Assembly: GCA_032718475.1 (NCBI GenBank)
Contig: JAUCBJ010000606.1
Span: 50,944 to 114,943 of the forward strand
DNA length: 64,000 nucleotides
Direction of reading: 5' to 3'
Origin: Nemertoderma westbladi
Taxonomy: Eukaryota > Animalia > Xenacoelomorpha
Position numbers and translations under genes: made by a program. Below the pieces are notes generated by a model. It was not told where the DNA came from. It saw only the letters and a program-made list of their open reading frames with translations, and did not search any database. Positions 4,847 to 60,140 of the stretch are shown one piece after another. The stretch's first letter is position 1. Every line of letters begins with the position of its first letter.

Positions 4847-4882
<36 letters not shown>

Positions 4883-29700: not shown

Positions 29701-29879
29701 ACTATATATAACTACTATATATAACAAACTGACTATATATAACTACTATATATAACAAACTGACTATATATAACTACTATATATAACAAACTGACTATAT
29801 ATAACTACTATATATAACAAACTGACTATATATAACTACTATATATAACAAACTGACTATATATAACTACTATATATAA
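26736..29879 (+). repeat. 31-bp satellite (CAAACTGACTATATATAACTACTATATATAA)n, about 3.1 kb
   Basis: 31-bp period with TA slippage variants. Confidence 0.98.
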
Positions 29880-41226: not shown

Positions 41227-41396
41227 TTATGAGTTACCAGTGGAGCACGGGCCTTTTAGTATAAGCCACATATAGAATTATATTCCCTAAATGCCGTGGA
41301 TTTTCAAAATTTTATTTTATTCGAATTAACTTTGTAAAGATTGCTTTGAGTTCTCATTAGTATTGGTTCTATCTATTATGCATCTATCGGTCAAGT

Positions 41397-41483
41397 GGTT
41401 CAGTAGCTCAGTTGGTAGAGCGTTGGAAATTATAAGTGTAGTAGGTATCGAGTTCGAATCCTAGTAAGTGCGAATTATTTTTT
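41397..41483 (+). ncRNA. Degenerate tRNA-like/Pol III cassette in LTR U3 (second copy 57926-58012)
   Basis: A box TAGCTCAGTTGGTAGAGC, B box GAGTTCGAATCC, downstream T run; acceptor and T stems pair poorly. Confidence 0.6.
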
Positions 41484-41680
41484 GTGCAGAATTTCAACTC
41501 ATTTAAATTAACCGCTACAAATTAATTGCATTTGTCTGTACCAATAAGGCTGTAGTTATTTGATTGTAACCAATGTCGTGCAAGTTATATATTAGCTGGA
41601 CCAATAAGCTATCTTTAAAACCTTGTTAGAACCCATAGAACAATCGAGAATTTTCTCGATTGATTGCGGCACAAATTTAG

Positions 41681-41790
41681 TATATAAAGGTGCGATTCGT
41701 TCATTAGTTATCAATCACTACTCAATCTACCTAATACAATCATTTATTCTGTCGTGCTTAGTTTATTCTCAGATTACATTGTATTATAAT
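41681..41790 (+). promoter_or_regulatory. Putative LTR TATA box, initiator and poly(A) signal
   Basis: TATATAAAGG at 41681, TCATTAGTT about 20-28 nt downstream, AATAAA at 41783 followed by a T-rich tract. Confidence 0.55.
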
Positions 41791-43190
41791 TGTATCTTTT
41801 GTAATAAAAGTCAGAAATACTAGTCACATCTCAGCTTTTCTATCTGTTTTACTATGGTTTCGCTACGGTGAACAAACTCAGGGACAGGATGGCCGGCTAG
41901 AGATCGGGCCGCAGCAATGAACGGGAACATCACGGGAATGTAGACGAGAGACAACCCGCAATACCATCTAGTGTTATTCGCCCATCGCCTGAAAGGTTAG
42001 ACAGCGTTCGATCCTTGCTACCTAAGTGTAAGACCAAAAGATCAAAGGTAGACGTAGTGACACGCTGTAAGCCCAAAATTACATCATAGGGACTGTACTG
42101 TCTTGATTCAGGAAAAAACCGCAGTAGACCTTCATATTCCTACGGGGGAGGAGAGAGAGCAGATACTAGTACGCAGATAGGACGTAGGCACACCGGTACA
42201 AGGCATACACATTGGTTAGGGTGCAGCAAACTGTACGCTTAACTCTTGCTAAGTACAGGTGTGTGTGTGACTATTTGCAGTACGACCGTGTCTATTACAT
42301 CAGAACTTGTAGGCTAGGGGGTTGCTGTGTTTTCACCTGAATTGGGATTGTACCGTTCAGGCGGTAGGGCAGTTTACGCTAGGCGCAAATAAATCGAGGC
42401 TATCAGGGATATACTAACATCTACCGTGTCCCGCCAACGCCCTAATAGGAAGTTACCTGGACTACCTGGGTGACTAAAATTCTAGATAGGAGCCAGGATA
42501 GCTATTAGTACCCGTACGCCTACAGTAGTAAACTAACACATCTCTTCTTAGTATCAGGGACCTGGTACCTAAAATTGCCGAATTCTGGGCGTAGTATTAA
42601 CCTTATGCCTGAATTTGAGTCCTGGAAATACGCAAGAGGGGAAGGAACCTTATCATTCGTGAGTATTGGACCTACAAGTTATAAAATTAGAATATTCGTA
42701 AAATGCACACCGTACCCAGTAATTATATATGTGAAGGAGCAAAACTGCTTTTGACCGTTCAGAATTAACACGCGCGCGTTAGAAATTATTTACACCTCAA
42801 AATATATAAAATTAACTTTCGTCCTTACTGCACTTTGCTCGCTAGTTAGACATCTCCAAATCTGCTCTATACCTAACTAGCGTCCCTTTGCCCAACCATA
42901 TAAATCACACCGCGGCAAAGTATACGAGCCCCTTAGTCCGTCAGTGAGTCAGCCTGATTTTAGGATTCGCTGCGCGGGATTTTGTTTTATCGAAGTTTGT
43001 CTGCTCGTAGACTGTTTTCTGCCTCACCGGTTAAAAGAGATCGATACTGCAATATATTCGCTTACTTGGGGTTTACTGTTTTGGTGAGAAGGTCGGATTT
43101 ATGATTTGATTTACAAACTTTACAGTAGGATATTGCAGGTATTGTTACCGTCTCTTCCGATAGTAGGAATAGGCGTATCTCTCCAATTTA

Positions 43191-43219
43191 GTAGGAATAT
43201 GTTTTACTGAACTACGGTT
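43191..43219 (+). promoter_or_regulatory. Putative non-tRNA primer-binding site
   Basis: GTAGGAATATG directly abuts the 5' LTR, lacks TGG, and is the exact reverse complement of LTR 42133-42143 (CATATTCCTAC). Confidence 0.55.
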
Positions 43220-43997
43220 CGGTAGGACTAAAGTTTTTTGAAAAATTTGTATTTTGAGGTAAAAATTTGTATTTGATTAGCTAAGTGCTAATTTTTTGAA
43301 ATAAAATTTGATTTGAACCGCGTGTAAAATATTTTGGAATTGAATACCGGTGTTTAAAAGGGTTTAAATACCATATTGTACCGGTACAAAAATTTTCGTA
43401 AAGTAAAACCTAACTCTTTTGTTTTTCAGGATTCAGAACTCATTTCTAGACTGTAACGGGAGCAAGACCGTGTTTAGCAAGTTTGGGAGATAGATAACTC
43501 AACAACTTTGGTTGGGAAAATCGCGTTTCGTCCGCAACGTTAAAAACGGAAAGGTTCACGTCCGGTTTGTATCTGGGAATCTGTTTTTCTGGAGAATTAT
43601 TGGAGTGGGTGAGTTCGAAAAGTTGCATAAATAAGTTAGGCATTACCGTATTAGTTAAAATTATTGTGGGTTCCACTGTCTCAAGTATTTATGCATTCCG
43701 TACGATTTCTTTGTTCATTGCTGAATTAGTCCGTATTATTGTATTTAATTTACCTTTTGATAACGCATATCGTTATCCGATTTATTTGTTGTAAAATTGG
43801 CCGCTAGGCTAATTTTATTATATACTTATTCCGTGACATTTATTTGCTGTAAAATTGGCCGTTTAGGCTAATTTTATCCATCTGCTATAAAATCGGCCGG
43901 TAGGCTAATTTTATATGACTGTAATTAGTACCGTTTTATACAAATACGGTAAACTCGATACTTTGACACTCACTTTACTTGACTTACAACTACCGAA

Positions 43998-46900
43998 ATG
44001 AGTGACAAACAAGACTATACGAAGAACACACAAACCGACTATGACTCATGTGACGCGGATAAGTCAGCAGCGGAAGAACCACAGGGGAAGACTCGCGAGC
44101 CTACCGAACCTACACCGTGTGCGTCACCAGTACATCCAACGGGAGTACCGGATGCCGTAGTACGAGGCGACGGCAGGACCGAGGACTTTCTAACTGTTCC
44201 GCAACCTAGATATAGGGAAACGGAAATGGTAAGTTCAGCAGGAAGCACAGAAAGTGTGGTTAGAAGCGTCGGAGGATACATGGCGCATATAACCAGGAGC
44301 ATTGGAGAAGGCCAACGCATATTAGACGGGTTGACCGCTCCGATGTCTCGATTCGAGTTCTACACCCTCCAGGTTAGAGTACAGAGTAAAGTATATAAGT
44401 CCGTAGATAATTTAGTTGGCCTACAAGATCTAGCTAGACAGAGACAGGACATGGATACTCAACTTAGAATCCTCGAGAAACTAATGATCACTAGAGAGAA
44501 ACTGATTCAGTTTAAGTCGACGATTAGACAGATACAACAGGAACAAGCGGACCAGTTGTTAGGTGAGTCAGTTTCGGACGAATTATTACAGCCCGAGGAA
44601 GAACAGGAACTGTACCGACTGGATGGACAATTGAAACACCTGACGGATCACTTGCGCATGTGCGGCGAAGACGTCGGGGATTGGGAAACCGTGCCGGAGG
44701 CTACGAGGGAAACTTCGCTCGCACAAATCGAATCAGCACCGGGAATACTGGACCAATCGTTGGTAAGTATTCGTAGCGAAATCTGCGAGGGAAGTATAGT
44801 CACGTCAGAAGTTGCTCGACAACAGCAAGAATTCCACCGACAACGACAAGAAGTGGAGGAACAAGCTCAACTTCTAGTGATGCAGGCAGCAGTAGAAGAA
44901 GAGAAGCTACGCGTTGCGAATATAGCGAGAATCTCTCATCTACAGGAACAAGCTGAATTAGAAGCAGCTGAAGTAGAAAGGTTAGAGCGAGACATTGCCC
45001 GACAAGCGGCAGCGGCAGCGGCCGAGTCAGAGCGACAAGCGGCAGCGGCCGAGTCAGAGCGACAAGCGGCAGCGGCCGAGTCAGAGCGACAAGCGGCAGC
45101 GGCCGAGTCAGAGCGACAAGCGGCAGCGGCAGCGGCGGAATTAGAACGAGACAGGTTAGTTTCGGAAGCACGGGCCGAAATGAAAACACGGCAAATAAAA
45201 GCTCAATCCGCCATACGACAAGCAGAGTTTGAGGCGCAACAACGACAAACGGAACAACGAGAGAAGACAGCTAAACTTCATTTCGAACTTGAGAAGAAGA
45301 CGAGAGAATTAGCGAACGCCGAGGAAGATCTGGATCAAAAGGCCCGCGATCGATCGATGAGATCTCGTGACGGACATGATTTGGACCAGTTAGAGGTAAG
45401 ACATCGCCAAATTCAGGAACGGAAGAAGGAAGGAAGCGTAGGAGCACCCGGACGGGAACGACAATTAGTAAAAGACGTGTGTCAACGATTCCCACAGGTA
45501 ACTCATATGTTTGCACCGGTCACGACTAAGGAACTTATTTCGATTGCTGGTAGCAGCGATATCTCTCCTATCCATGGTGTGACGGAACACAGGTTTGTTA
45601 TTCCGGACAAGTTTACACCGCCAAGAGCAACGTCGTCGCCTATTCCGAAAGTCAAGGTAAGTAACCCACCGATTGCAGATCGTAGTAGTTTATTAGTCGG
45701 ACCTGCACTACTGACGACAAAACAGGTGAGTCCACCTTTGACACCTAAACCCGTTACGCACTACGATTACCCAATGACATTTCGGCCTACAAGGCCTTTG
45801 GATTCAAACGCGGTCGTCCGACCACCAGTTCAGTTTACGTCGCAATCTACGACTTCGAGGAAGACTTGTGAGCCTACCGAACAACGGAGAACAGTGGAGA
45901 CGCGACCATTCAACCAGTTTACATCGCAATCTACGACTTCGAGGAAGACTTGTGAGCCTACCGAACAACGGAGATCAGTGGACGATGTTCCGAAACGAGC
46001 CGTTAGAATTCGAACGACGCAACGGACGCGAGCACGTCGACCACCATATCCAGATGATAGTAGTACTTCAAGCGAATCGGATTACCCGAAACGCGAGGTA
46101 TTTAGAACAGGGGCGGCCGACGAATATAAACGCGAGCGTTCAGACAACTCCTTTGCAGACAATCCTCCACAGAATACACCAACACAGAAGGCGTTACAAC
46201 CAACGAACGCAATTAGTACACAACAGTTCGCCGACATTCTGCGACCAGTTGTTAATAAGTTGGCTCAGATCGAGGAGCGTCTGGAGGAAGTTCAAACCGA
46301 CAGTTCGAGAAATTCCGAATTCGAACACAATAGACACCCGAAGGGACCACAAAGACCGGTACCTTCAAACCCCACATCGTATCAGGGAAAAGCGCCAAGA
46401 AGGGAGAACATCAACCAGACTACCAACCAAGGACGCGAAACTCTGAACGTTGCCGAGGAGATAGCAAAATTCGCAGCCAGACAGGGATTGCCGGTACAAC
46501 AACCACCGAAGTTTTCCGGTAGCTCGAAACACTGGCATACCTTCGTAGACTATATTGAATCCCAGATCGCCGTGTGCGCCTTTACATCACGAGAGAAGTT
46601 CAATTACTTGCTCCAAACGTTGTCAGGAGAACCTAAACGTTTGGCGGAGACTTTCGTCGGTGTACCAGACGCTTTCGAACTAGCGTACGATCGTTTGACT
46701 TCGATATACGGAGGTACAGTGAGTATGGCCAGGTCAGTAATAGAAGAACTCTGTAAGGGAGGGGCTATCACTAAACCCGTCGACTTACTAAAACTGGCCG
46801 ACGAGATTAAGAACGCTATCACTACCTTAAGATCAATTGGACAACTGGATTACGGAAATACCCCGACAGTTTTATTAAAGATAATAGGACGACTCCACCA

Positions 46901-49900
46901 TCGACTTCGTCGGGAGTGGAGGAAGGTCGAATATCAGCGAGAGGAGCGAGGAGGATTCCTAAAATTAGAAGATGTGTACCTTTTAATATCCAGGGAGGCG
47001 GTAGTAGAGACTCGATCTAACTATACCGACCAGCACATCGTGGCAGAAGGGATCACACTGCCATCCTCCAACCGACAAAAACCCCAGACAACATCCACAA
47101 AGACGGCCACTTACGCCACACCGACGGAATCACGACAATTCTCAGACGGTAATAGAGTATCTGCGCCCATTGGAACGAAACAGACGAGACAGCAACTCAG
47201 CGCCGACTTCAACGGCTGCCAATACTGCGAACATTTAGGTAAGCGGTATATTGGTCACAAGTTACGAGGTTGTCGACAATTTCGCGAGTTGAACTCAGAA
47301 GAACGACGGCTGCAGATACGGCCACTGGACTCTTGTTGGCGGTGTACGCGACACGGACACGTCCGTAAGGATTGTCCAAATACCGACACTTGTCCATCCT
47401 GTGGACGCAACCACGACGGTCTGCTCCACACAGACAGCCACACGCCGACGAAACGCTTCGCCAGGGAACACCCGGAAGCAGCAGCGAGATGTGATGCGGC
47501 TTACCGAAAACGGGAATCGAAAACGACTCCGACTTTCGTGACCCATATAGAGGATTGCTTTTCAGAACAATCCGGATCGTCGGACGAAGAATCAGAAGAC
47601 GACGAATATTCAAATGGAGACGAACAACCGTCAATCGCGCTCCTGACCACTGACCAACTGAAGGGATTCAGTGTAATCCCGATTAAAGTTACTGGCACAA
47701 AAGGGAGCAAGAGGATTTACGCGATTCTAGACTCAGCCTCATCTCACAGTTACGTAGATGAAAAGATAGCTGACGTCGTAACAGATCTTAGACAAGGTAA
47801 GCACGTCAGTTATACAGTAAGTAGTATGCACGGCCAGCGTGCAATACCAGTGACACGAGTTAAGTTGGACTTAGACTCTCTTCTTCCAAAATCGCAACAC
47901 AGCGAGAGGGAGAGGTCTTTGTTGCCCTTTAGAGATCTAACCTTTGCGGCCACGAAGGACTTTAGTAACCTACTAGGTCCAGTGCCGGAACAATCTCTGG
48001 AGGACCGTAAGTATTTCAGACACCTTGGTGTACCCGAATGTCCTGTCAATTATAGATCGGTAGCAATGCTGATCGGGACGGACCAATTCAACCTACATCA
48101 GGTGTGGGAAACCAGACCATCGGCAGTTGTAGCAGGAAACGCATACGCCTGCAGAACGCCGATAGGGTGGTATACTCGAGCGCCTGTGCGCACACTAGAC
48201 GTAAGTGACGAGGAAGACGACGTACAGAGTACATGTAGTTTATTGACTACAAACTCAATTCATTCCTTTTCACACGACGTGAACCATACTACGCTACAGT
48301 CGACAAAACATCACAGACGTGTAACTAGTATGATAAGTCACAAGGAGCAGCTAACCCACAAGGTGAGTTTAGAAATTGGGGGGAAGATGAGTCAGCTAGA
48401 GATTCCATCGACGACAGATGATAGGCTTGCGAGTCTACCTACCCCAATAACTTCAACAGTGCCCATCGATATCGACGATGACGCGTTGAAAATTCATCAG
48501 TTGGAACAAGCCGCCTTGGACAAAGAATTAACGGAGAAGACTATCAGGTGGTTAGAACAAGATACAGCTGAACCTGGTAGCTACGACCCTTGTATGTCGG
48601 AACAGGAGAAACAATCTTTAAAGATCATGGAGGATACTATCCGACAGACGGAGGACGGACATTACGAGGTGGGGATGTTATGGCGTAGCCAAAGTCCTAA
48701 ACTTATAAATAACTACCCACTGGCTTTAAGACGTCTACACTCAATCCGACAACGTCTATTAAAGGACGAGAAAGCCCATCTGCAGTATAACACTCAGATG
48801 GAGACGTATTTGACGAAGGGATACGCTATCCGAATGACTAACCCGGAGCGAGTGACAGACCAGACGTACTACTTGCCACATCACTATGTGAGACATCCCG
48901 ACAAACCAGATAAAGTACGCGTAGTCAATGACTGTGCGGCTCTGTTTGAGGGAATGTCCCTCAATAGTGAATTGATGGATGGACCGAACATGAATAACTA
49001 TCTTATGGGGGTGATTATGCGCTTCCGTCAGCGTCAAGTAGCCTTTACTTGCGACGTAGAAGCGATGTTTCACCAAGTGAAAGCGTTAGAGCGAGACAGA
49101 GACAGTTTGCGGTTTCTCTGGTATCCGGAAGGGGACTTAAGTCTACCACCAGCGACTTACCAAATGCAAGTTCGCGTTTTCGGTGCCAGAGACAGCCCAA
49201 ATTGTACGATGTACGCCTTGAAGCAAGCCGCTAGAGATCAGAAACATCTGTATGACCCAGAGATAATTAGAATTGTAGAACGTGACTTTTACGTTGATGA
49301 CGGTTTACAAAGTTGCGACACAGTAGAACGTGCTACAACAGTAGCACATCAATTACGGGACTGCTTGGCGGGCGGAGGTTTTAACCTCACCAAATTCGCC
49401 TCAAACAGTGCCGAATTAGTTGACTCATTCGGAACTACTGAGCGTGGAGGTGGTGATATAGACCTAGAGTTCGAACCACTACCGACGACTAAGGTGTTGG
49501 GGCTCTTTTGGGACCCAAACACAGACAACTTTCGAGTGAAGGTGAGACTGGACAGTCAAGGAGACACACTGACCAAGAGATCATGCTTGTCAAAGTTGAG
49601 CCGATTGTTCGATCCGTTAGGATTCATCAGTCCAGTAATACTGCAAGCTCGCATTTATATGCGCAGTATATGGAAGGATGGACTAACGTGGGACGAGCCG
49701 ATCTCATCAGATCAAGTGGACTTATGGAAGACCTGGGAGGCGGAATTGTCTTCGTTAGAGGATTATTCCATACCCAGGGTTTACTTTCCATTACAGAGTA
49801 CATTTCCTGACAACTTGGAACTACACTGTTTTTCTGACGCCAGTGACAACGGGTTTGGTGTGGCAGCGTATTTGCGCAGACAAGTAGAATCGGACGAGTT

Positions 49901-52658
49901 CGATGTTTCGCTCATTACTTCCAAGGCTAAGACCATGCCTACTAAGTATATGACGACACCACGAGCCGAGCTACAAGCCGCGACCCTGTCAACCACCATC
50001 GTGAACCTCATACAGACAGAACTACAGTCGAGTTTACAGATATTTTATTGGACTGACGCGACGTTGGTTTTATTTTACATAAACAACGACACACTCGAAT
50101 TCAAGACATTCGTAGCTAACCGTCGCGCAGAGATTCTAGACCGTTCGATAAAAGAGGATTGGCGACATTGTCCCGGACCACAAAACCCAGCTGATATTGC
50201 GTCGCGAGGAATGATGCCTGAAGAATTCTGTAAACCGGAAAACAAAGAGTTTTGGCAACACGGACCCCAGTTCCTGCAGAAATCGACACAAGATTGGCCT
50301 CCGTTATACGACAACAAGTCCAACACCATTCCTAAGGACGCCGAAATCAAGAAACCAAAAAAGGGGAAGACAAAGAAAAAGACGACGGCGGCAAAACTCA
50401 AGAAAAAACCGAAGGCGAAATGGAAGGATATAACTTCAAAGGTCAAGAGAGGAAGACTTGCGAGCCTTTCTACACCAGACATATCGCCAGACGGTCGACC
50501 AGACACGTTACCAGACAGTCAACCAGACATTTTGCCAGACATATCACAAAATGTTCCACCAGACGTTAGTAACGCACTGACAAACAGTAAAGCCGCAGTT
50601 TCCCTATTGGAGCGGCCTTCTATTGACAAACAACCAGATACGTTACCAGACGTATCGCCAGACACACTACTAGACAGTCGACTAGACACTAGTAATGTAT
50701 TGACTAACAATAAAGCCGCAGTTTCCCTATTGGAGCGGCCTTGTATTGACAAACTACCAATTTTGACACACTTGAGCAACCATAAGCATGGTGAAACCTC
50801 ATGTATTGCAGATGTGGGTAGTACCTACGCTAATGTAAATACAGGTGTTACTTTGCGCTCAAGAGACATACCGAACTTACAACCTGTGGTGAGACCTGGG
50901 ATTAATGTCGGCAGAAAATTAAGTTTACCAAAACCTGCTGACCCCATAGAGTTCAAACCACCATTAGCGATCGACTTACAAAGTACCGACAATCAAGGTA
51001 AGAAGACAAAGAAGGACAAATTACTTGTAGACCCGGACGGATCAACAGTCAACAAGGGAATACTTACCGGCGGACCCGTGGGCCCTTCTAGTAATTCAAA
51101 ACCTTCCAAGTTCTCCATTGACTTACCTGATGACGTCACAAATACTTACGTCGACCGTATTGTAAACCTAACAGATTCTTGGTCAAACGCTTGCCGAAAA
51201 TTAGCGTGGATTGTACGTTTTGTACAATACGTTAAAGGCAAACGTGACTTCACACGTCGACTTACATTGGCTGAGATTGACAGGTGTGAGATCAAATTAA
51301 TTCGCCATTACCAACTGAGATATTTCGCGCGCGAATTCACATCTATAAGTCAAGGTCAACCAATCAAGTCGTCACCGATACTGAGTTGGAGTCCGATAAT
51401 TTATAATGGCTTAATTTGTCATAAATCTCGGCTTCAAAACATTGACTTTAACACGAACTTTAGGTACCCAATAATAATACCGCAACACCACGAACTACAA
51501 CGTGCAATGATACTGGACGCACATTTACATCTGAAACACGCAGGAAGACACCACTGTCTTTCCTACTTACGTACTAGATTTGTATTAATTAGACCCAGTA
51601 AAGCATTAAGTTCCGTGACACGTACGTGTATTATTTGTAAAAAGGTACATTCTAGAATAGGTACCCAAGAAATGAGTGAACTACCACAAGCACGACTTCA
51701 AGCATTCAGACCACCTTTTACAGAGACTGGAATTGATTGCTTTGGTCCCATACATACTAAACGTGGACGTATACTAGTAAAACGCTGGGGACTGATTTTC
51801 ACATGTATGTCCAGTAGGGCAGTTCACATTGAACGTGTGATGGATCTTTCCACCAACGCGTTTATACTAGCACTGCGGCGATTTATCGCTAGACGCGGAC
51901 TAGTAAAATGCTTGTACTCAGACCAAGGGACAAACTTTGTTGGTGCTCGGAATGAGATTGCTAGAGCCTTTAAGAAATTAGATCATGATCAAATCTCAAA
52001 CGAACTGCAACCTCACAAGATTGTTTGGAAGTTCAATCCTCCAGATAGTCCTTGGAGAGGCGGAGTCTGGGAGAGACTGATTAGATCTATAAAGACAGCA
52101 ATGGCAAAGGTCATTCCAGTAAACCACATATTAACAGACGACCAACTGACAACATTGTTTGTTGAAATCGAGGCAATACTAAATACTAGACCAATAGTAT
52201 TAGTACCCGATAACAAACAATCCCAGTTTGCTTTGACACCGGCACACCTGCTAATGCAGGCACCGACGACATTAACGCCGATTTCTATTCCAATAGAAAG
52301 CGACAGCTATGGTAGAAAAGCGTGGAAAATCACGCAACTACTAGCTAACAAATTCTGGGAAATATGGCAAAACCATTATTTGCCCTCTATTTCTGCCAGA
52401 ACAAACTGGTACAATAACACCCGCGCATTAAAGCCGGGAGATCACGTGCTGTTGGCGGAAGTGAATCTAAAAAGACGCTTCTGGATAACAGGTGTCATTT
52501 TAGCCACACATCCATCTATGGATGGAGTGACAAGAACTGTGACAGTACGGACAATTGACGGTCGTACAGTAGACAGACCGACTCAACGTCTCGTACTTCT
52601 TGAAGAGACTCGTAACGAGTCTGGAGACTACAAATCTCCACCTAATACTAGTAAATAA
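43998..52658 (+). CDS. BEL/Pao Gag-Pol polyprotein (coiled coil, Gag, 3 Zn knuckles, protease, RT, RNase H, integrase)
   Basis: PPKFSG..HW; CQYC..H..C, CWRCTRHGHVRKDC, CPSCGRNHDGLLH; protease ILDSAS; RT YLPHH, DVEAMFHQV, FYVDD; RNase H FSDAS, PRAEL, WTDA, NPADIASRG; integrase HH-CC, GIDCFGP, SDQGTNF, GGVWERL; 2886 aa uninterrupted. Confidence 0.97.
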   Translation: MSDKQDYTKNTQTDYDSCDADKSAAEEPQGKTREPTEPTPCASPVHPTGVPDAVVRGDGRTEDFLTVPQPRYRETEMVSSAGSTESVVRSVGGYMAHITRSIGEGQRILDGLTAPMSRFEFYTLQVRVQSKVYKSVDNLVGLQDLARQRQDMDTQLRILEKLMITREKLIQFKSTIRQIQQEQADQLLGESVSDELLQPEEEQELYRLDGQLKHLTDHLRMCGEDVGDWETVPEATRETSLAQIESAPGILDQSLVSIRSEICEGSIVTSEVARQQQEFHRQRQEVEEQAQLLVMQAAVEEEKLRVANIARISHLQEQAELEAAEVERLERDIARQAAAAAAESERQAAAAESERQAAAAESERQAAAAESERQAAAAAAELERDRLVSEARAEMKTRQIKAQSAIRQAEFEAQQRQTEQREKTAKLHFELEKKTRELANAEEDLDQKARDRSMRSRDGHDLDQLEVRHRQIQERKKEGSVGAPGRERQLVKDVCQRFPQVTHMFAPVTTKELISIAGSSDISPIHGVTEHRFVIPDKFTPPRATSSPIPKVKVSNPPIADRSSLLVGPALLTTKQVSPPLTPKPVTHYDYPMTFRPTRPLDSNAVVRPPVQFTSQSTTSRKTCEPTEQRRTVETRPFNQFTSQSTTSRKTCEPTEQRRSVDDVPKRAVRIRTTQRTRARRPPYPDDSSTSSESDYPKREVFRTGAADEYKRERSDNSFADNPPQNTPTQKALQPTNAISTQQFADILRPVVNKLAQIEERLEEVQTDSSRNSEFEHNRHPKGPQRPVPSNPTSYQGKAPRRENINQTTNQGRETLNVAEEIAKFAARQGLPVQQPPKFSGSSKHWHTFVDYIESQIAVCAFTSREKFNYLLQTLSGEPKRLAETFVGVPDAFELAYDRLTSIYGGTVSMARSVIEELCKGGAITKPVDLLKLADEIKNAITTLRSIGQLDYGNTPTVLLKIIGRLHHRLRREWRKVEYQREERGGFLKLEDVYLLISREAVVETRSNYTDQHIVAEGITLPSSNRQKPQTTSTKTATYATPTESRQFSDGNRVSAPIGTKQTRQQLSADFNGCQYCEHLGKRYIGHKLRGCRQFRELNSEERRLQIRPLDSCWRCTRHGHVRKDCPNTDTCPSCGRNHDGLLHTDSHTPTKRFAREHPEAAARCDAAYRKRESKTTPTFVTHIEDCFSEQSGSSDEESEDDEYSNGDEQPSIALLTTDQLKGFSVIPIKVTGTKGSKRIYAILDSASSHSYVDEKIADVVTDLRQGKHVSYTVSSMHGQRAIPVTRVKLDLDSLLPKSQHSERERSLLPFRDLTFAATKDFSNLLGPVPEQSLEDRKYFRHLGVPECPVNYRSVAMLIGTDQFNLHQVWETRPSAVVAGNAYACRTPIGWYTRAPVRTLDVSDEEDDVQSTCSLLTTNSIHSFSHDVNHTTLQSTKHHRRVTSMISHKEQLTHKVSLEIGGKMSQLEIPSTTDDRLASLPTPITSTVPIDIDDDALKIHQLEQAALDKELTEKTIRWLEQDTAEPGSYDPCMSEQEKQSLKIMEDTIRQTEDGHYEVGMLWRSQSPKLINNYPLALRRLHSIRQRLLKDEKAHLQYNTQMETYLTKGYAIRMTNPERVTDQTYYLPHHYVRHPDKPDKVRVVNDCAALFEGMSLNSELMDGPNMNNYLMGVIMRFRQRQVAFTCDVEAMFHQVKALERDRDSLRFLWYPEGDLSLPPATYQMQVRVFGARDSPNCTMYALKQAARDQKHLYDPEIIRIVERDFYVDDGLQSCDTVERATTVAHQLRDCLAGGGFNLTKFASNSAELVDSFGTTERGGGDIDLEFEPLPTTKVLGLFWDPNTDNFRVKVRLDSQGDTLTKRSCLSKLSRLFDPLGFISPVILQARIYMRSIWKDGLTWDEPISSDQVDLWKTWEAELSSLEDYSIPRVYFPLQSTFPDNLELHCFSDASDNGFGVAAYLRRQVESDEFDVSLITSKAKTMPTKYMTTPRAELQAATLSTTIVNLIQTELQSSLQIFYWTDATLVLFYINNDTLEFKTFVANRRAEILDRSIKEDWRHCPGPQNPADIASRGMMPEEFCKPENKEFWQHGPQFLQKSTQDWPPLYDNKSNTIPKDAEIKKPKKGKTKKKTTAAKLKKKPKAKWKDITSKVKRGRLASLSTPDISPDGRPDTLPDSQPDILPDISQNVPPDVSNALTNSKAAVSLLERPSIDKQPDTLPDVSPDTLLDSRLDTSNVLTNNKAAVSLLERPCIDKLPILTHLSNHKHGETSCIADVGSTYANVNTGVTLRSRDIPNLQPVVRPGINVGRKLSLPKPADPIEFKPPLAIDLQSTDNQGKKTKKDKLLVDPDGSTVNKGILTGGPVGPSSNSKPSKFSIDLPDDVTNTYVDRIVNLTDSWSNACRKLAWIVRFVQYVKGKRDFTRRLTLAEIDRCEIKLIRHYQLRYFAREFTSISQGQPIKSSPILSWSPIIYNGLICHKSRLQNIDFNTNFRYPIIIPQHHELQRAMILDAHLHLKHAGRHHCLSYLRTRFVLIRPSKALSSVTRTCIICKKVHSRIGTQEMSELPQARLQAFRPPFTETGIDCFGPIHTKRGRILVKRWGLIFTCMSSRAVHIERVMDLSTNAFILALRRFIARRGLVKCLYSDQGTNFVGARNEIARAFKKLDHDQISNELQPHKIVWKFNPPDSPWRGGVWERLIRSIKTAMAKVIPVNHILTDDQLTTLFVEIEAILNTRPIVLVPDNKQSQFALTPAHLLMQAPTTLTPISIPIESDSYGRKAWKITQLLANKFWEIWQNHYLPSISARTNWYNNTRALKPGDHVLLAEVNLKRRFWITGVILATHPSMDGVTRTVTVRTIDGRTVDRPTQRLVLLEETRNESGDYKSPPNTSK

Positions 52659-53316
52659 TTAGGAGTTTACAAATAGATTCCCACGTACCTGTACACCGTA
52701 GTAAGGACAGCGGTAGAATTCCATTGTCTTTATATGTGAACATTGAGGGTAGTACCCTTATGTGTCACATAGGAGCGGGATTTGTAGGTATAAGAAATGG
52801 AATTCTACTTGGAACTCACAATATTGAGACATTTTCGAAATTTTAGACAATCCATTTGGATTTGAAAAATTTTTAAAATTTTCTCCAGTGAATAGATTTC
52901 AGGGTACAGTCGGGTGGAACTTAAAATTAGAGAAACAAGAGAGGAAGACTTGCGAGCCTTTCTTAAAATTTTAATTAAATTTTACACGGTCTTGTTTCAA
53001 TAAGTTACGTCAAAATAGACTCCCCTATATTTATTACTAATTCTTGACTGCTTATTTTCTGATAATAGTTTGGGATCAAAAAGTGAGTATTTTAGACTCA
53101 CGGCCAGTTTAGCCCAAATTCGTTTTTACTTCGGCAAAAAATTTTAGATAAGAAGCAGCGTGTCATTAAAGAAACCCTAGATCTTAGGCTATGGGTAGGA
53201 GGTTAGAGCGTTGTCGAGCCCAAAGGGCAGACGAAACTCTCACGTCTCCTCACAACTAACTACAAACTCTGTTGTATTCCCTCTAGTAGTAATGATTATG
53301 TAACTACACCCTAATT

Positions 53317-56300
53317 ATGGAGAAAGGGATACAAGGAGAGCCGAGATGGGGATATGATATCCAAGAGGAGGCAGCAGCGCCATTCGAAAGATTTGGAGCC
53401 AAGGATTATACTATATTTGGTATAAAAGAATTATCGGAAAGTACAGCGAAACTCGCGAGAACTAAATATGACTCGAATGTATTAAAGAGAAGGCAAAACG
53501 CATTAAACGAAAGAATCGAAAGTTTGCGCCAAACCTTCAACGAACTTTACCCGTACGATGCTTTGTGTGACACGGGAGACATTAGCGAAGACCCCGATAC
53601 TGAAATTAGTCGTTTGTATCATACCATGCAATACCTAAAGGCGCACGAACCTATGCCTGCGGTACGCGATGAATTCGATGGAATGCATCTTTACAGACGA
53701 ACTCGAGGGGACGATAGAGAAACCAAGGAAGCATTTTCAGTTTATAAACTTTATTATCAATGCGGTTCTTGTATGCGCGAACAACGAAATGCGATTCCGA
53801 TGCGTTTGAATAAGGAAAATCCCGAACCGATATTGGCGAGGTGTTCGAATCATCAACAACTACGCTACCAGGAAGGAGGGTATCCTTTATCGAATCCATA
53901 TCATTCATTTGCTATGACCGGACCAAAGGCGGGAGAAACTGTCATTTACCCACCTAAGGTTGTTGAACCCGATGTATTTGAACTTACGCTGGACGAGGCG
54001 AATCAGTCAACCCGCGAAAAGAAAGAAGCTCTTAGCCTATACAGAGCCTACAAGGCTTTCGAGAAAGGTGAGATGGAAGAATGGGGTGGAAGACTCGCGA
54101 GCCTACCTTGCCATTGGACGTCACACGATCAAACTTCAGCTAAGGAGATGACACCGGAAGTTTTCGAGAGCATAAACTTCGCTCAAAACGTTATTCAGAG
54201 ACTACAGATTGCATCCCCGGAGAGGCCAAGAGAAATGCAACCGTATAGTACTTCAGCTACGAAACCATTGAGTACGACACTCAATTTCCCTATTAGTATA
54301 CCAGTCCGACAGGATACGACGTACGAAATACCCATCGTGGATCATCCAGAAATCATTTCAAACTTGGAGTTTCTTCCTGCAGTTGTTTTCAGCGATATGA
54401 GTAAGATATATGATTTGCGTAGACATATTACTCAAAAGGTCGTGAACAACGTTCCACCTCATATCCAAGATTTTAAGGAACTGGATAGAGCTGGTGCCGA
54501 CATAGCTCCGAGTAATCTGAAAGGATATCTAACCAAGACGATTCGTTTATGGATTGGAATCGGAACCTTCGAGTCGGATACAGGTATTGCCGCAGATTGG
54601 CGAGGTAAGGTTATTCGTTTCGATGAGGATAAGGATATAGAGAAGATTTGGCAACCTTCGGAAGAATTGTTGGATGAATGGACTAGGACGTTTAGATCGT
54701 TTCAGGAAAACGGTTATATGTTTTACGATAACGAGGGCGGCAGTCATCAGCAGAGTTTGACTTCTAAGACTATACAGATTAGAGCGGCGGACGGAGTCCT
54801 GCACGTTTTCAGTAGACAGAGGAGCGACAAACGAATGCCGATACCTCCAGCGAATACAAAGCGACACCATCTTATAACCGATATAGTAAAGAAGATGGAC
54901 CAAGCTTGTAATATTGACGCTAGAATGCTACCGAAGATGGTAAGAAACATGATTTTAGATAAAACTGTTGTAAAGGTTGGATCAGGAGTAAGGGAGGATT
55001 TAATTAGCGACTTCGCCGGCATGACGGACAGCGATGACCGACTACCGACACCATACGTCGACACTCGACCTCTTATTCTGTGGTCTATAGAACAGGGATA
55101 TTTTCGTGAGTATAATACTCAGAAGACTGGAACTGGATACATTTCCTACCTGTTATTCAATTGGGATTATAAGGAAGGTAAAAGAAACAAGTATATTGAA
55201 ACTTATGGAGAAGGTGATACTCCAGATATGAGTGAGTTTGAATCACAGCTTAAATGGAGAGGATGCGTGTATTGGGCTATTACGTCACCTCCAAGAGCGG
55301 TCTTACAATATTATTTAGCGATAGAGTCGTCAGTGAATGTTTGCCTAATCGCCGACATTGTGTCTCGGACTCTCAAAAGACATCCACTTTGTCTCGGAGA
55401 AGATCATACGTTCTACATGGAAGGGAGAATTCGTACCGACGTGTTTAGACGATTCCTTGAACCCTTCTACAACTCCGACGCTCAGTGTAATGCCTTTACT
55501 CGAGCAGGATTTAGTATATTTCGAGACGTGTATCTTCGCTGTGCGGGATCTCTTATCGAAAGACCATCTATGTTTACATTGTTACCCTATGAAGGAGAAC
55601 GTATTGTGGAAATTACGGATGAATCACGGCAGACGCGCGCGCCTATCGGTCACCCCGGTGATGATTTCAACGTAACTACTACGATCGCCGACGATCCTTT
55701 AGAGGAACTTCTTGAGATAGAAAGGAACCTCCCGAAGAAATCTCAGACGGAGATTCGACAACTTGAAGCAACAGATGCTATAGTTTGTATACAACCTTCA
55801 GAAACCTACCAACCTATAGACCCAGATGATTACGATTATAGTGTGGGAGGAAGCGCTCGACCGATTGGAGATCTTATATACGAACGAGTGTGGTACCCTG
55901 CTAATACGATGTGTAGTAAATGTGGCGTCGCTGGACATCATATGGCAAAGTGCAGTGGAAAGCACATTACTACGACTCAGCTAATCTGTGGATGGTGTGG
56001 GGATCAAGGGTCTCATACCTTTTATACTTGCTGGAGATTTATGGCTCAATGTACTTACTGCAATATAAAGGGACATCGAGCATCTGAATGCCAACTGAGA
56101 GACATACCTTATGAACACGAATCTGTAAAACTTGTGAGGAAGTTATTTGATGAGTGGGAAGATTTAGCCGACGAACATGTATCGGCACAGAGAAGACGGT
56201 TTCCGATGAGAGCGCATCTCGGATTTTGGGCGGTAAATCCCCAGACGATGATGTCGGAAGGATATATCTCCGCTATGCCCCAATATGACGAACTTATCGA

Positions 56301-57042
56301 GGTTGTTGATATTTTGCCCCACGACAGCGGATTCCGAGTGGTGCGCGAGTATCTGTTACAGATTCACCCGGATAACAAAAACACGTGGAATTTTCAGAAA
56401 GTCGTAAATCGTATCACGTATGGTGAATTTGATCGTTTCCGAACCGAAAAGCGGAATAAAGGAGCTTGGTTAACCGTCGCATGGGCGTACCGAGCCGCGT
56501 TTTACCATAAACGTATACGAGCGAGCGTATTCGAGGAAGAAGAGGTCCTAGAGGCGACGAATATACCAGCCACTCCGGTTGCGCCGTCTGCACGTCACCC
56601 TCGGGAGGACGGGCAGGGAAGGATCATACGGGTCCAAAAGGTGGGCCAACAATTGAAGAAAATAATTAATGTAGAAGAACGCAAGGGAGTTGAGCCGACT
56701 ATTCGAGTTACTCGGGATACGGTATCACTTCCAAGAGAACCGGTAGGAGGATCGGGACATACACCAGCTGATCAACAGGGGGCGCAAGCTACTCTTGGGT
56801 CTGCGTCGTCCGCTTCTCACGCGTTCCCAGACGTTCTACCAACTGTAGCGACAACTGATCGGTCACGAGGAATTGGTCGAGGTTTTGGGATGCCAAATAG
56901 ACGAATTTGCGAGGAAATAGTTGCACCGTCTCTCAACGTCCCAAGTAAACCAGTGACTCGCCCCATTAGTCCCATATCGCGAGCAAAGTCACCTGTGCGC
57001 AGTTTTCGAGGACGCGGCAGGGCTCGATCAACTAAGCGATAA
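53317..57042 (+). CDS. Accessory ORF: DEDDy-like 3'-5' exonuclease domain plus three CCHC zinc knuckles
   Basis: ExoI-like FYDNEG...IQI, ExoII-like ILDKTVVKVGSGVREDL, YVDTRPL, ExoIII-like W..SPP...LQYYLAIE (about 54700-55330); CSKCGVAGHHMAKC, CGWCGDQGSHTFYTC, CTYCNIKGHRASEC (55911-56092); intact 1241 aa inside the LTRs. Confidence 0.75.
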   Translation: MEKGIQGEPRWGYDIQEEAAAPFERFGAKDYTIFGIKELSESTAKLARTKYDSNVLKRRQNALNERIESLRQTFNELYPYDALCDTGDISEDPDTEISRLYHTMQYLKAHEPMPAVRDEFDGMHLYRRTRGDDRETKEAFSVYKLYYQCGSCMREQRNAIPMRLNKENPEPILARCSNHQQLRYQEGGYPLSNPYHSFAMTGPKAGETVIYPPKVVEPDVFELTLDEANQSTREKKEALSLYRAYKAFEKGEMEEWGGRLASLPCHWTSHDQTSAKEMTPEVFESINFAQNVIQRLQIASPERPREMQPYSTSATKPLSTTLNFPISIPVRQDTTYEIPIVDHPEIISNLEFLPAVVFSDMSKIYDLRRHITQKVVNNVPPHIQDFKELDRAGADIAPSNLKGYLTKTIRLWIGIGTFESDTGIAADWRGKVIRFDEDKDIEKIWQPSEELLDEWTRTFRSFQENGYMFYDNEGGSHQQSLTSKTIQIRAADGVLHVFSRQRSDKRMPIPPANTKRHHLITDIVKKMDQACNIDARMLPKMVRNMILDKTVVKVGSGVREDLISDFAGMTDSDDRLPTPYVDTRPLILWSIEQGYFREYNTQKTGTGYISYLLFNWDYKEGKRNKYIETYGEGDTPDMSEFESQLKWRGCVYWAITSPPRAVLQYYLAIESSVNVCLIADIVSRTLKRHPLCLGEDHTFYMEGRIRTDVFRRFLEPFYNSDAQCNAFTRAGFSIFRDVYLRCAGSLIERPSMFTLLPYEGERIVEITDESRQTRAPIGHPGDDFNVTTTIADDPLEELLEIERNLPKKSQTEIRQLEATDAIVCIQPSETYQPIDPDDYDYSVGGSARPIGDLIYERVWYPANTMCSKCGVAGHHMAKCSGKHITTTQLICGWCGDQGSHTFYTCWRFMAQCTYCNIKGHRASECQLRDIPYEHESVKLVRKLFDEWEDLADEHVSAQRRRFPMRAHLGFWAVNPQTMMSEGYISAMPQYDELIEVVDILPHDSGFRVVREYLLQIHPDNKNTWNFQKVVNRITYGEFDRFRTEKRNKGAWLTVAWAYRAAFYHKRIRASVFEEEEVLEATNIPATPVAPSARHPREDGQGRIIRVQKVGQQLKKIINVEERKGVEPTIRVTRDTVSLPREPVGGSGHTPADQQGAQATLGSASSASHAFPDVLPTVATTDRSRGIGRGFGMPNRRICEEIVAPSLNVPSKPVTRPISPISRAKSPVRSFRGRGRARSTKR

Positions 57043-57799
57043 AAGGGAGGGCAAGGGTGGACGGAAGACTCGTGAGCCTTTCTTATGATTTGTGATTTAT
57101 TTGAATTATATGTTTTATATTTAGAAAGAAATTTAGAAAGTTTATATTTAGAAGGAACTTATATTTGAAAGATTTATGTTTCATATTTGAGATGCAAAGG
57201 TTTATATTATTCTAAACTTATGCAGTTTATATTTATATTTAAGTAAAGACTTATATTTAGTAAAACTTATATTTAGTAAGAATTTATATTTACGTGATTA
57301 TTTCGAACTTATGCAATTTATATTATTCCAAACTTATGCAATTTGTATTGTTCCGAATACTATATTTTATAAGCAGTATTTGTATTTACAGTGTAAAAGA
57401 GAAAGTTTTATAGACAGAAAAATTTGTGCTCAGAAAGACTCATATTTGTAATTATTCCAAACCTATGCAATCTACATTTAGGTACGAAAGTATTTGTAAT
57501 TACTTGAGATGCAATATTATTTGTATTTGTAATTGTTTGAATTTATGCAATATCTGAGATGCAATAGATTTATATTGGTGAATTTAATTTAGATTTATAT
57601 TGTACTTACTTAGTAAAGCCTTAAATACGTAAAGTTTGAATTTGTAATTATTTTGTATCGAATCATTACGTAGAAAGGAAGTATTGTTTGAAACTTAATA
57701 GTAAATATGTAAGTACGCCCTAAGTATTCTATAGTTTGATTGATTATTGGTGAAAACCGTATATTTTATGCACGATAATATCCTGTTTTCATGGAGCGG

Positions 57800-59719
57800 T
57801 ATAGAATTATATTCCCTAAATGCCGTGGATTTTCAAAATTTTATTTTATTCGAATTAACTTTGTAAAGATTGCTTTGAGTTCTCATTAGTATTGGTTCTA
57901 TCTATTATGCATCTATCGGTCAAGTGGTTCAGTAGCTCAGTTGGTAGAGCGTTGGAAATTATAAGTGTAGTAGGTATCGAGTTCGAATCCTAGTAAGTGC
58001 GAATTATTTTTTGTGCAGAATTTCAACTCATTTAAATTAACCGCTACAAATTAATTGCATTTGTCTGTACCAATAAGGCTGTAGTTATTTGATTGTAACC
58101 AATGTCGTGCAAGTTATATATTAGCTGGACCAATAAGCTATCTTTAAAACCTTGTTAGAACCCATAGAACAATCGAGAATTTTCTCGATTGATTGCGGCA
58201 CAAATTTAGTATATAAAGGTGCGATTCGTTCATTAGTTATCAATCACTACTCAATCTACCTAATACAATCATTTATTCTGTCGTGCTTAGTTTATTCTCA
58301 GATTACATTGTATTATAATTGTATCTTTTGTAATAAAAGTCAGAAATACTAGTCACATCTCAGCTTTTCTATCTGTTTTACTATGGTTTCGCTACGGTGA
58401 ACAAACTCAGGGACAGGATGGCCGGCTAGAGATCGGGCCGCAGCAATGAACGGGAACATCACGGGAATGTAGACGAGAGACAACCCGCAATACCATCTAG
58501 TGTTATTCGCCCATCGCCTGAAAGGTTAGACAGCGTTCGATCCTTGCTACCTAAGTGTAAGACCAAAAGATCAAAGGTAGACGTAGTGACACGCTGTAAG
58601 CCCAAAATTACATCATAGGGACTGTACTGTCTTGATTCAGGAAAAAACCGCAGTAGACCTTCATATTCCTACGGGGGAGGAGAGAGAGCAGATACTAGTA
58701 CGCAGATAGGACGTAGGCACACCGGTACAAGGCATACACATTGGTTAGGGTGCAGCAAACTGTACGCTTAACTCTTGCTAAGTACAGGTGTGTGTGTGAC
58801 TATTTGCAGTACGACCGTGTCTATTACATCAGAACTTGTAGGCTAGGGGGTTGCTGTGTTTTCACCTGAATTGGGATTGTACCGTTCAGGCGGTAGGGCA
58901 GTTTACGCTAGGCGCAAATAAATCGAGGCTATCAGGGATATACTAACATCTACCGTGTCCCGCCAACGCCCTAATAGGAAGTTACCTGGACTACCTGGGT
59001 GACTAAAATTCTAGATAGGAGCCAGGATAGCTATTAGTACCCGTACGCCTACAGTAGTAAACTAACACATCTCTTCTTAGTATCAGGGACCTGGTACCTA
59101 AAATTGCCGAATTCTGGGCGTAGTATTAACCTTATGCCTGAATTTGAGTCCTGGAAATACGCAAGAGGGGAAGGAACCTTATCATTCGTGAGTATTGGAC
59201 CTACAAGTTATAAAATTAGAATATTCGTAAAATGCACACCGTACCCAGTAATTATATATGTGAAGGAGCAAAACTGCTTTTGACCGTTCAGAATTAACAC
59301 GCGCGCGTTAGAAATTATTTACACCTCAAAATATATAAAATTAACTTTCGTCCTTACTGCACTTTGCTCGCTAGTTAGACATCTCCAAATCTGCTCTATA
59401 CCTAACTAGCGTCCCTTTGCCCAACCATATAAATCACACCGCGGCAAAGTATACGAGCCCCTTAGTCCGTCAGTGAGTCAGCCTGATTTTAGGATTCGCT
59501 GCGCGGGATTTTGTTTTATCGAAGTTTGTCTGCTCGTAGACTGTTTTCTGCCTCACCGGTTAAAAGAGATCGATACTGCAATATATTCGCTTACTTGGGG
59601 TTTACTGTTTTGGTGAGAAGGTCGGATTTATGATTTGATTTACAAACTTTACAGTAGGATATTGCAGGTATTGTTACCGTCTCTTCCGATAGTAGGAATA
59701 GGCGTATCTCTCCAATTTA
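57800..59719 (+). repeat. 3' LTR (1920 bp)
   Basis: Direct repeat of 41271-43190; preceded by a short purine-rich GGAGCGG; followed by TSD CCACA. Confidence 0.96.
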
Positions 59720-60140
59720 CCACATTCAGCGTCACACCTCTGATTGTAGTTTAGGAATGTAATTTTGTAAATTTAGGGCCATTTTTTATATTTTTATATT
59801 TTGTTAGGGCCACTATTAATAAATTGAATGTAATTTAACTGTACAATATGAACACAATCTAACACGGATGTGTTTTCCTTGGAAGGCCATTTAATATATT
59901 TGTTTTAGGTTTAAGGGCCATTTCATATTTTCAAATCTCTGTATCTTCAAAATCAAGGAATGTTTTGTATTAGAAACTAGGGGATTCGCAAAGGGGTGAA
60001 AATTTTGTCTTTGTCAGGTTCCACCTCAGTCAAATTGGTTGCGCTCACGCTTATGGGGGGGGGGGGGAGGGGGGGTTGTGTTGTTACTACCTAAAGTAAC
60101 CTATTGTATTACGGCAATTAAATTCCTATATTAATGATTG

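What the first reader, a model, noticed from the sequence alone, without database searches (positions are those of the whole stretch)
53317..57042. Accessory DEDDy-like exonuclease plus triple CCHC protein in the env position
Seen: an intact 1241-aa sense ORF after pol, with no evident signal peptide or transmembrane anchor. It has WRN/RNase D-like ExoI-III motifs (last acidic residue is E, in YLAIE), three CCHC knuckles, an N-terminal CxxC...C..H and an Arg-rich tail. Known, from recollection and to be verified: DEDDy ORFs occur in a few rotifer and nematode LTR elements, so capture as such has precedent; this large multidomain form is unfamiliar to me. Inference: it could trim the self-encoded primer (RNase D enzymes trim RNA 3' ends), proofread cDNA, or degrade host small RNAs.
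Basis: partly seen in the sequence, partly recalled or inferred. Interest (0 to 1): 0.85.

Follow-up and report, generated by a model that had tools for sequence, protein, structure and literature searches.

The report
Giant retrotransposon with zinc-knuckle exonuclease gene
A very young, unusually large jumping gene in an invertebrate genome carries an extra, selection-preserved gene that likely encodes an RNA-trimming enzyme with zinc fingers, and the element appears to lack a tRNA primer site and is predicted to prime copying with its own RNA, which this enzyme may trim.

Summary
The ORF is real: 1241 codons after pol in an 18.4-kb BEL/Pao retrotransposon with identical 1920-bp LTRs. It has no membrane segment and three CCHC knuckles. 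Of 35 displayed copy differences in it, 27 are synonymous (pN/pS about 0.1). No homologue was found among 1.84 billion representatives. A DEDDy exonuclease domain is likely but remote: language-model score 0.92, ordered-motif test 17 of 1000 shuffles. ExoI (D471, E473) and ExoII (D561) are located; ExoIII is ambiguous (Y666/E670 or Y630/D634). The element has no tRNA-type primer site. The 11 nt after the 5' LTR pair with LTR 42133-42143, which sits on the LTR's only Inr+DPE match, inside an intron seen spliced out in one run. Best reading: an exonuclease with the exonuclease-plus-knuckles layout of trypanosome RNase D that trims the self-encoded primer (0.3). Counter-defence, a non-catalytic RNA adaptor and cDNA-end polishing remain open. 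DEDDy cargo is published for rotifer LTR elements; I found no BEL/Pao case. Verdict: new variant of a known kind.

The parts
41271..43190 (+). 5' LTR, 1920 bp, TA...TA termini, preceded by target-site duplication CCACA (41266-41270)
41404..41483 (+). tRNA-like stretch with pol III A box (41404), B box (41452) and T6 run (41478); role unknown
   Evidence: consensus recalled; not called a tRNA by ARAGORN or Rfam
41681..41808 (+). TATA box (41681) and AATAAA (41803): candidate upstream promoter P1 and first polyadenylation signal
   Evidence: a start upstream of 41996 is implied by the spliced joint
41996..43429 (+). 1434-nt GT..AG intron that removes the predicted primer and the primer-binding site
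   Evidence: joint in run X1 only, 1 of 4 runs laid; boundaries
42132..42165 (+). only Inr+DPE match in the LTR (predicted start 42134): candidate promoter P2
   Evidence: 0.47 matches per shuffled LTR; consensus recalled
42133..42143 (+). predicted self-primer, 11 nt complementary to the primer-binding site
   Evidence: 13 of 3000 shuffles reach 11 nt
42388..42393 (+). second AATAAA, downstream of P2
43191..43201 (+). predicted primer-binding site, directly after the LTR, not starting with TGG
43201..43228 (+). predicted 12-bp hairpin with a cUACGg tetraloop next to the primer-binding site
43998..52658 (+). gag-pol, 2886 aa, BEL/Pao type (DUF1759, Peptidase_A17, DUF5641; protease DSAS, RT YVDD, RNase H DAS, integrase motifs)
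53317..57042 (+). ORF3, 1241 aa, accessory gene in the env position
53761..53853 (+). ORF3 N-terminal C149/C152/C176/H179, possible zinc site; region without any known relative
54643..55386 (+). likely DEDDy 3'-5' exonuclease domain (about aa 443-690): D471, E473, D561; ExoIII either Y666/E670 or Y630/D634
55912..56091 (+). three CCHC zinc knuckles (aa 866-925)
56980..57039 (+). Arg-rich C-terminal tail
44086..57082 (+). eight dispersed copies of a roughly 20-nt quasi-palindromic motif (cores at 44090, 45863, 45947, 48424, 50455, 52947, 54092, 57067), in two reading frames and in non-coding DNA
   Evidence: 8 in the element, 0 in the rest of the window, 0.18 expected per shuffled element; pattern derived from these copies
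57793..57799 (+). short purine-rich tract abutting the 3' LTR (weak PPT candidate)
57800..59719 (+). 3' LTR, 100% identical to the 5' LTR, followed by CCACA (59720-59724)

Best explanation
ORF3 is an intact, selection-preserved accessory gene of a very young 18.4-kb BEL/Pao retrotransposon; it likely encodes a zinc-knuckle-assisted DEDDy 3'-5' exoribonuclease, whose most likely job is to trim the 3' end of a predicted self-encoded primer RNA. Shown: gene, knuckles, synonymous excess, 11-nt LTR/PBS complement, Inr+DPE match at its 5' end, a GT..AG joint removing primer and PBS. Inferred: (1) the domain has the DnaQ fold (about 0.85) and is active (about 0.6); (2) the upstream TATA promoter gives a spliced gag-pol mRNA, while RNA starting at 42134 anneals by its first 10-11 nt to the PBS of unspliced genomic RNA, in cis after a nick or in trans as a short transcript; (3) the knuckles hold the unpaired 3' tail and the exonuclease digests it back to the duplex edge, leaving a 3'-OH that reverse transcriptase extends into the LTR.
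For: Gene; 27 of 35 displayed substitutions synonymous, pN/pS 0.08-0.12; contigs 81-83% alike cover the exonuclease region, e.g. 334 nt with 56 differences and no gap (X2 record 14). Fold: ESM Atlas 0.92, 24 of 30 hits in a set whose best cluster carries PF01612 on 50% of members; NCBIfam DnaQ E 0.029 over ExoI; five ordered blocks from 57 bacterial PF01612 domains score 27.7 bits, 17 of 1000 global and 3 of 500 local shuffles reach it, and the path lands on D471, D561, D582; the alignment keeps D471, E473, Q487, K553, D561 invariant across 51 rows. RNA substrate by analogy: T. brucei RNase D joins a DEDD domain to four CCHC fingers that bind RNA and boost 3' trimming (PMC7797062 passages); it is a weak hit to the knuckle array (E 1.8). 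Primer: meets the published criterion of 10 or more bp within 0-5 nt of the LTR (PMC6317226); 13 of 3000 shuffles; sole Inr+DPE match at that spot; intron joint.
Against: No Pfam or PDB sequence hit for the domain; whole-domain HMMs built here did not beat shuffles clearly (5-14 of 300 in three profiles, no hit in the fourth; hhalign probability under 2%); a held-out PolA exonuclease scores 46.3 against 27.7; ExoIII unresolved and possibly E for D; the 626-699 region has pLDDT 37-51 even with a DEDDy alignment supplied. Tf1/Tf2 free the primer with element RT/RNase H and need no exonuclease. A common variant, 42135 T>C (775 of 820 depth in X1, 11% in X2, 13% in X3), would mispair with the PBS unless 43199 changes too; 43199 is not among the 40 rows shown of 97. 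DEDDy cargo occurs in unrelated rotifer elements, which suggests a more general benefit (PMC5408684). Earlier unchecked notes describe self-priming BEL/Pao elements without mentioning such a gene. No start site at 42134 is shown: contigs cannot show starts.
Confidence: 0.3

Rival explanations
1. ORF3 is a counter-defence nuclease: the knuckles bind host small RNAs or the element's double-stranded RNA and the exonuclease degrades them, much as some RNA viruses use DEDD exonucleases to hide dsRNA (recalled).
For: DEDDy cargo was captured repeatedly by unrelated retroelements (PMC5408684). One X1 contig over the LTR (42319-43019) has 90 differences, many of the shown ones A>G and absent from X2 and X3, as expected of edited dsRNA (interpretation recalled). 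Fold neighbours include Nibbler and Exd1 of the piRNA pathway (circular model).
Against: No direct link to small RNAs was tested. Most mature piRNAs carry a 3' methyl group that blocks such enzymes (recalled).
Confidence: 0.25
2. The exonuclease fold is catalytically weak or dead and ORF3 is an RNA adaptor for export, transport or packaging, binding the eight dispersed motifs, like Egalitarian or Exd1.
For: ExoIII is degenerate or displaced. Eight motif copies are kept at the nucleotide level. The Arg-rich tail fits a nuclear or RNA-binding signal. Egalitarian is among the fold matches (circular model). EXD1 and Maelstrom are inactive DEDD derivatives (PMC5408684 Discussion).
Against: D471, E473 and D561 are all retained. 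The motifs lie outside the intron, so they cannot tell spliced from unspliced RNA. Their hairpins are weak (-3 to -8 kcal/mol on either strand).
Confidence: 0.2
3. ORF3 polishes cDNA: it removes the single-stranded PBS copy and non-templated bases from cDNA 3' ends so that integrase finds the LTR end, or proofreads a large genome.
For: About half of Tf1 cDNA keeps a single-stranded PBS copy at its 3' end and most carries non-templated bases (PMC11042837). Here the PBS abuts the LTR with no spacer. The element is 18.4 kb against 4.2-10 kb for the family. The nearest motif matches are of the WRN/EXD2/NrnC type, which include DNases.
Against: Tf1 integrates without such a gene. A separate ORF3 product would have to enter the particle. 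CCHC arrays mostly read single-stranded RNA (general knowledge).
Confidence: 0.15
4. The domain is not a DnaQ-fold nuclease, or the LTR/PBS complement is incidental and a host RNA fragment is the primer; ORF3 then has another job.
For: All sequence-level fold tests are individually weak. The alignment-free fold failed (pLDDT 30). Host small RNAs were not screened against the PBS.
Against: Motif order, spacing and the language-model hit agree. The complement and the Inr+DPE match coincide.
Confidence: 0.1

Closest known systems
DEDDy ORF3 of bdelloid rotifer Juno and Vesta LTR retrotransposons and Athena/Terminon elements (PMC5408684)
   Same: Sense ORF after pol, no membrane segment, RNase D-like DEDDy domain with a variant acidic set (DEED there); activity untested in both.
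   Different: Host element is BEL/Pao here. The protein is 1241 aa with three C-terminal CCHC knuckles (the word CCHC does not occur in that paper) and a long unknown N-terminal part. The rotifer paper reports mostly neutral intragenomic variation for the ORF3s it cloned; here there is a strong synonymous excess. Homology to the rotifer ORFs was not tested: no sequence was at hand.
Trypanosoma brucei RNase D (TbRND; PMC7797062)
   Same: DEDD exonuclease followed by an array of CCHC fingers, a combination the authors call very unusual.
   Different: TbRND is a cellular mitochondrial enzyme of about 375 aa with four fingers 28 aa after the domain; here three knuckles lie about 175 aa after it. 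Similarity is architectural: sequence E 1.8 over the knuckles only.
Tf1/Tf2/Tj1 and the Tf1/Sushi group; plant Tcn1 and TAR lineages (self-primed LTR elements)
   Same: 11-nt complement inside the LTR to the bases directly after the 5' LTR; predicted start at the primer; alternative transcripts that lack the primer (Tf2, PMC5341516).
   Different: Those are Ty3/gypsy or Ty1/copia, and the papers read name no accessory nuclease. Here the LTR is 1.9 kb, the primer lies about 1050 nt from the PBS and inside an intron.
Belpaoviridae (BEL/Pao), ICTV profile PMC8742986
   Same: Gag-pol domains and order, 5-bp target-site duplication, third ORF position.
   Different: 18.4 kb versus 4.2-10 kb; LTR 1.92 kb versus 0.2-1.2 kb; no 18-nt tRNA-type PBS; third ORF is not env-like; TA..TA termini.

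Membership tests
BEL/Pao LTR retrotransposons | BEL-type gag and pol domains in PR-RT-RH-IN order | tested here: met
   DUF1759, Peptidase_A17 and DUF5641 over their cut-offs; motifs in order; 32-37% identity to other BEL-type pol regions
BEL/Pao LTR retrotransposons | LTRs and target-site duplication | tested here: met
   1920-bp identical LTRs, CCACA duplication
BEL/Pao LTR retrotransposons | 18-nt PBS complementary to a tRNA 3' end (ICTV description) | tested here: not met
   The bases after the LTR do not start with TGG. An atypical trait within a lineage defined by pol; internal tRNA fragments were not screened.
BEL/Pao LTR retrotransposons | Placement in an RT tree among BEL/Pao clades | not tested
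   no tree built
DEDDy (DnaQ-like) exonucleases | ExoI D-x-E and ExoII D in conserved context | tested here: met
   D471, E473, D561
DEDDy (DnaQ-like) exonucleases | ExoIII Y-x3-D | tested here: inconclusive
   Y666/E670 3.6 bits versus Y630/D634 2.0 bits; low pLDDT
DEDDy (DnaQ-like) exonucleases | DnaQ fold by an independent structure prediction | tested here: inconclusive
   Single sequence failed. With a supplied DEDDy alignment: pTM 0.63, pLDDT 84-89 at ExoI and ExoII, matches to EXD2, NrnC, Nibbler, WRN, RNase D at Z about 10 with rmsd about 4 over about 160 residues; circular and without a control.
DEDDy (DnaQ-like) exonucleases | Catalytic residues conserved among homologues; nuclease activity | not testable with these tools
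   no homologues found
Tf1-type self-primed elements | 10 or more nt in the LTR complementary to the bases 0-5 nt after the 5' LTR | tested here: met
   11 nt at offset 0; criterion from PMC6317226
Tf1-type self-primed elements | Transcript starts at the primer | tested here: inconclusive
   Inr+DPE match at 42132; only contigs available, and the spliced form starts further upstream
Tf1-type self-primed elements | RNase H cleavage of the RNA duplex frees the primer | not testable with these tools
   needs biochemistry
env genes | Signal peptide and transmembrane anchor | tested here: not met
   maximum 19-residue hydropathy 1.38

The most novel reading that the evidence does not exclude
The element encodes its own primer factory: a mini transcription unit inside the LTR (Inr+DPE at 42134, AATAAA at 42388, hidden in an intron) makes a short RNA that anneals in trans to the primer-binding site, and ORF3 trims it to a 10-11-nt primer. 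That would be a retroelement with a dedicated primer-maturing nuclease, needing neither tRNA nor RNase H cleavage of its genome.
Probability: 0.13. Interest if true: 0.88.

Novelty: new variant of a known kind. Interest (0 to 1): 0.62.

Why it matters
DEDDy cargo in retrotransposons has been an unexplained observation since 2017, with no activity shown and neutral variation in the rotifer ORF3s tested. This element supplies a selected, multidomain version in another lineage, with a concrete candidate substrate that can be assayed in a tube. If primer trimming holds, it is a new way to start reverse transcription. If counter-defence holds, it is an enzymatic anti-silencing gene of an animal retrotransposon.

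Tried and rejected
Homologue searches that found nothing: whole protein, near lengths (0 of 6843 candidates); exonuclease region, shorter (0 of 1844) and near lengths (0 of 1812 at E 0.1); aa 1-860 against 1.84 billion representatives (0 at E 0.001); metagenome and viral contigs; phage records; 61 bacterial genomes (7 weak hits, best E 0.02, not followed). Longer fused forms (over 2172 aa) were not searched. These collections are thin in animal repeats, so the blank does not show absence. The 18 loci fetched with the integrase core hold no ORF3 match (best E 0.81); most are too short to reach an ORF3, and one complete element (L004) has none. ESM Atlas on aa 1-400: no usable hit. No whole genome is held, so co-occurrence of ORF3 with PBS type across families could not be tested. 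Single-sequence AlphaFold failed. A hand-made motif pattern (3 of 2000 shuffles) was rejected because it was tuned on the query and missed RNase D. Pairwise BLAST to RNase D: E 0.31. Rfam and ARAGORN found no ribozyme or tRNA in the LTR and leader. A splice-junction primer, as noted for other BEL/Pao elements, was tested: 0 GT..AG junctions in the LTR give 9 or more complementary nt. No RNA holder was listed; X5 (RNA by guess, another organism label, depth 2-7) was laid but not used. Depth profiles of contigs were not used to rank regions or to place starts. A recalled report that nematode Cer7 encodes its own primer could not be checked. Complex prediction was not used: no protein partner is claimed.
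Full report
Observation. The ORF at 53317-57042 is intact, 1241 aa, on the same strand as a 2886-aa gag-pol ORF that ends 658 nt upstream. Gag-pol carries DUF1759, Peptidase_A17 and DUF5641 above their cut-offs, so the element is BEL/Pao. Its LTRs are 41271-43190 and 57800-59719, 1920 bp and 100% identical, with TA termini and a CCACA duplication: a very recent 18,449-bp insertion. The ICTV profile (PMC8742986, whole text) gives 4.2-10 kb, LTRs of 0.2-1.2 kb and a tRNA-type PBS. ORF3 has no hydrophobic segment, three CCHC knuckles at aa 866-925, C149/C152/C176/H179 and an Arg-rich tail. Neighbouring ORFs look like animal genes and non-LTR elements (read by eye); no whole genome is held.

Is it a selected gene? 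Four runs of one organism label hold 66-78% of the ORF's words. Laying 3 of them plus X5 gave 163 substitution rows, of which 40 were shown and 35 fall in ORF3. Of these 27 are synonymous and 28 are at third positions; pN/pS is 0.08-0.12. The shown rows are the best supported, so the figure describes common variants; two codons carry two changes each and were scored singly. None of 12 shown indels (of 24) is in the ORF. Contigs 81-83% alike also cover the exonuclease region, so a sister subfamily has it. Joints 53456 to 55489 (X1, X2) and 53476 to 55601 (X3) show broken derivatives that lack the domain.

Is it a DEDDy nuclease? Pfam and PDB sequence searches miss it and no homologue exists in the collections searched. 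In favour: ESM Atlas features of aa 400-760 score 0.92 to a cluster half annotated PF01612, with all ten best family hits in one family or clan (the tool notes that shuffled proteins reach 0.9 in 4-10% of cases); NCBIfam DnaQ gives E 0.029 over aa 467-531. I gathered 60 bacterial PF01612 domains. Whole-domain profiles were not convincing. Five ordered blocks from 57 of them (3 dropped for lacking the ExoI residues), with gap limits set wider than the family's, scored ORF3 at 27.7 bits; 17 of 1000 global and 3 of 500 local shuffles reached that, gag-pol and eight other natural ORFs scored 7-22, held-out PolA 46.3, and the best path fell on D471, D561 and D582. An alignment with 50 of the 60 keeps D471, E473, Q487, K553 and D561 invariant. 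ExoIII is open: Y666/E670 with an upstream CxxW scores 3.6 bits, Y630/D634 at canonical spacing 2.0 (post hoc). AlphaFold with that alignment is confident at ExoI and ExoII (84-89) and not beyond aa 626 (37-51); its matches to EXD2, NrnC, Nibbler, WRN and RNase D are circular. I put the fold at about 0.85 and activity at about 0.6. The knuckles match retroviral NC best (E 0.004) and, weakly, Air2 and T. brucei RNase D. The latter is a DEDD domain plus four CCHC fingers that trims guide RNA 3' ends (PMC7797062, passages): the closest architectural analogue.

The primer. The 11 nt directly after the 5' LTR pair perfectly with 42133-42143; 13 of 3000 dinucleotide shuffles of the LTR do as well. 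This meets the criterion of PMC6317226 (passages). The only Inr+DPE match in the LTR (consensus recalled) puts +1 at 42134, with 0.47 such matches expected per shuffled LTR, as Tf1-type priming by the transcript's 5' end predicts (PMC4600332, PMC5341516, passages). A cUACGg hairpin follows the PBS. There is also a TATA box at 41681, and AATAAA at 41803 and 42388. Run X1, labelled DNA by guess, shows a GT..AG joint removing 41996-43429 that is absent from the other three runs, and a contig with many A>G changes; I infer that X1 is RNA, that an upstream start gives a spliced mRNA lacking primer and PBS, and that one X1 contig over 53376-55262 reflects transcription of the exonuclease region. Against: variant 42135 T>C is common and would mispair at primer position 3 unless 43199 changes; that place is not among the 40 of 97 rows shown. 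No splice-made primer exists here.

Mechanism. I commit to primer trimming at 0.3: RNA starting at 42134 anneals to the PBS, in cis after a nick or in trans, and the knuckle-assisted exonuclease removes the unpaired 3' tail. Nothing ties ORF3 to the primer except co-residence and fit. Rivals: counter-defence 0.25, inactive RNA adaptor 0.2, cDNA-end polishing 0.15 (Tf1 cDNA keeps single-stranded PBS and non-templated bases, PMC11042837, passages), something else 0.1.

Relation to the literature. DEDDy ORF3s are published for rotifer Juno, Vesta and Athena elements, with activity undemonstrated (PMC5408684, passages and the Discussion; echoed in PMC6431247 and PMC5718144, passages). Searches listed no paper on a BEL/Pao exonuclease ORF or BEL/Pao self-priming; passages of PMC3118150, PMC13524379 and PMC554778 mention neither. 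The library lacks most subscription papers and Repbase, and I read no supplements; those of PMC5408684 and PMC3118150 hold sequences that could bear on homology.

Verdict. Observation confirmed with one open motif; interpretation partly supported. New variant of a known kind, interest 0.62; the dedicated primer-factory reading has probability about 0.13 and would rate 0.88.

Noticed in passing
window 44086-57082: Eight copies of a roughly 20-nt quasi-palindromic motif with a variable YGYG centre, in two reading frames and non-coding DNA, none outside the element. Candidate packaging signal or protein-binding site; two copies come from a 68-bp internal duplication.
   Followed up: partly
window 41996-43429: An intron that starts inside the LTR and removes both primer and PBS; loose ends at 41995 and 41997 in X1 suggest other LTR copies splice from the same donor into host sequence.
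   Followed up: partly
window 41404-41483 and 57933-58012: tRNA-like pol III promoter boxes with a T6 terminator in the first part of each LTR.
   Followed up: partly
window 42319-43019: One X1 contig with 90 differences, many A>G, resembling hyper-edited double-stranded RNA.
   Followed up: no
window 41271-41272 and 59718-59719: Non-canonical TA...TA termini instead of TG...CA.
   Followed up: no
window 43099-43190: Contigs in X2 and X3 replace the last 90 nt of the LTR by other letters and then continue into the same PBS region: a related family with a different LTR end.
   Followed up: no
window 44100-44110 and 43216-43226: The 3' side of the first motif copy is complementary over 11 nt to the 3' arm of the hairpin next to the PBS; possible long-range switch.
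   Followed up: no
window 52768-52779: A second purine-rich tract resembling the one before the 3' LTR lies just after pol, possibly a relic from before ORF3 was gained.
   Followed up: no
window 2561-4921 and 10325-11419: Long open frames that read by eye like a ROC-COR GTPase and C-terminal CARD-like repeats; not searched against any library.
   Followed up: no
window 12055-15200, 26600-30000, 62245-63803: Large tandem arrays of 30-33-nt units.
   Followed up: no
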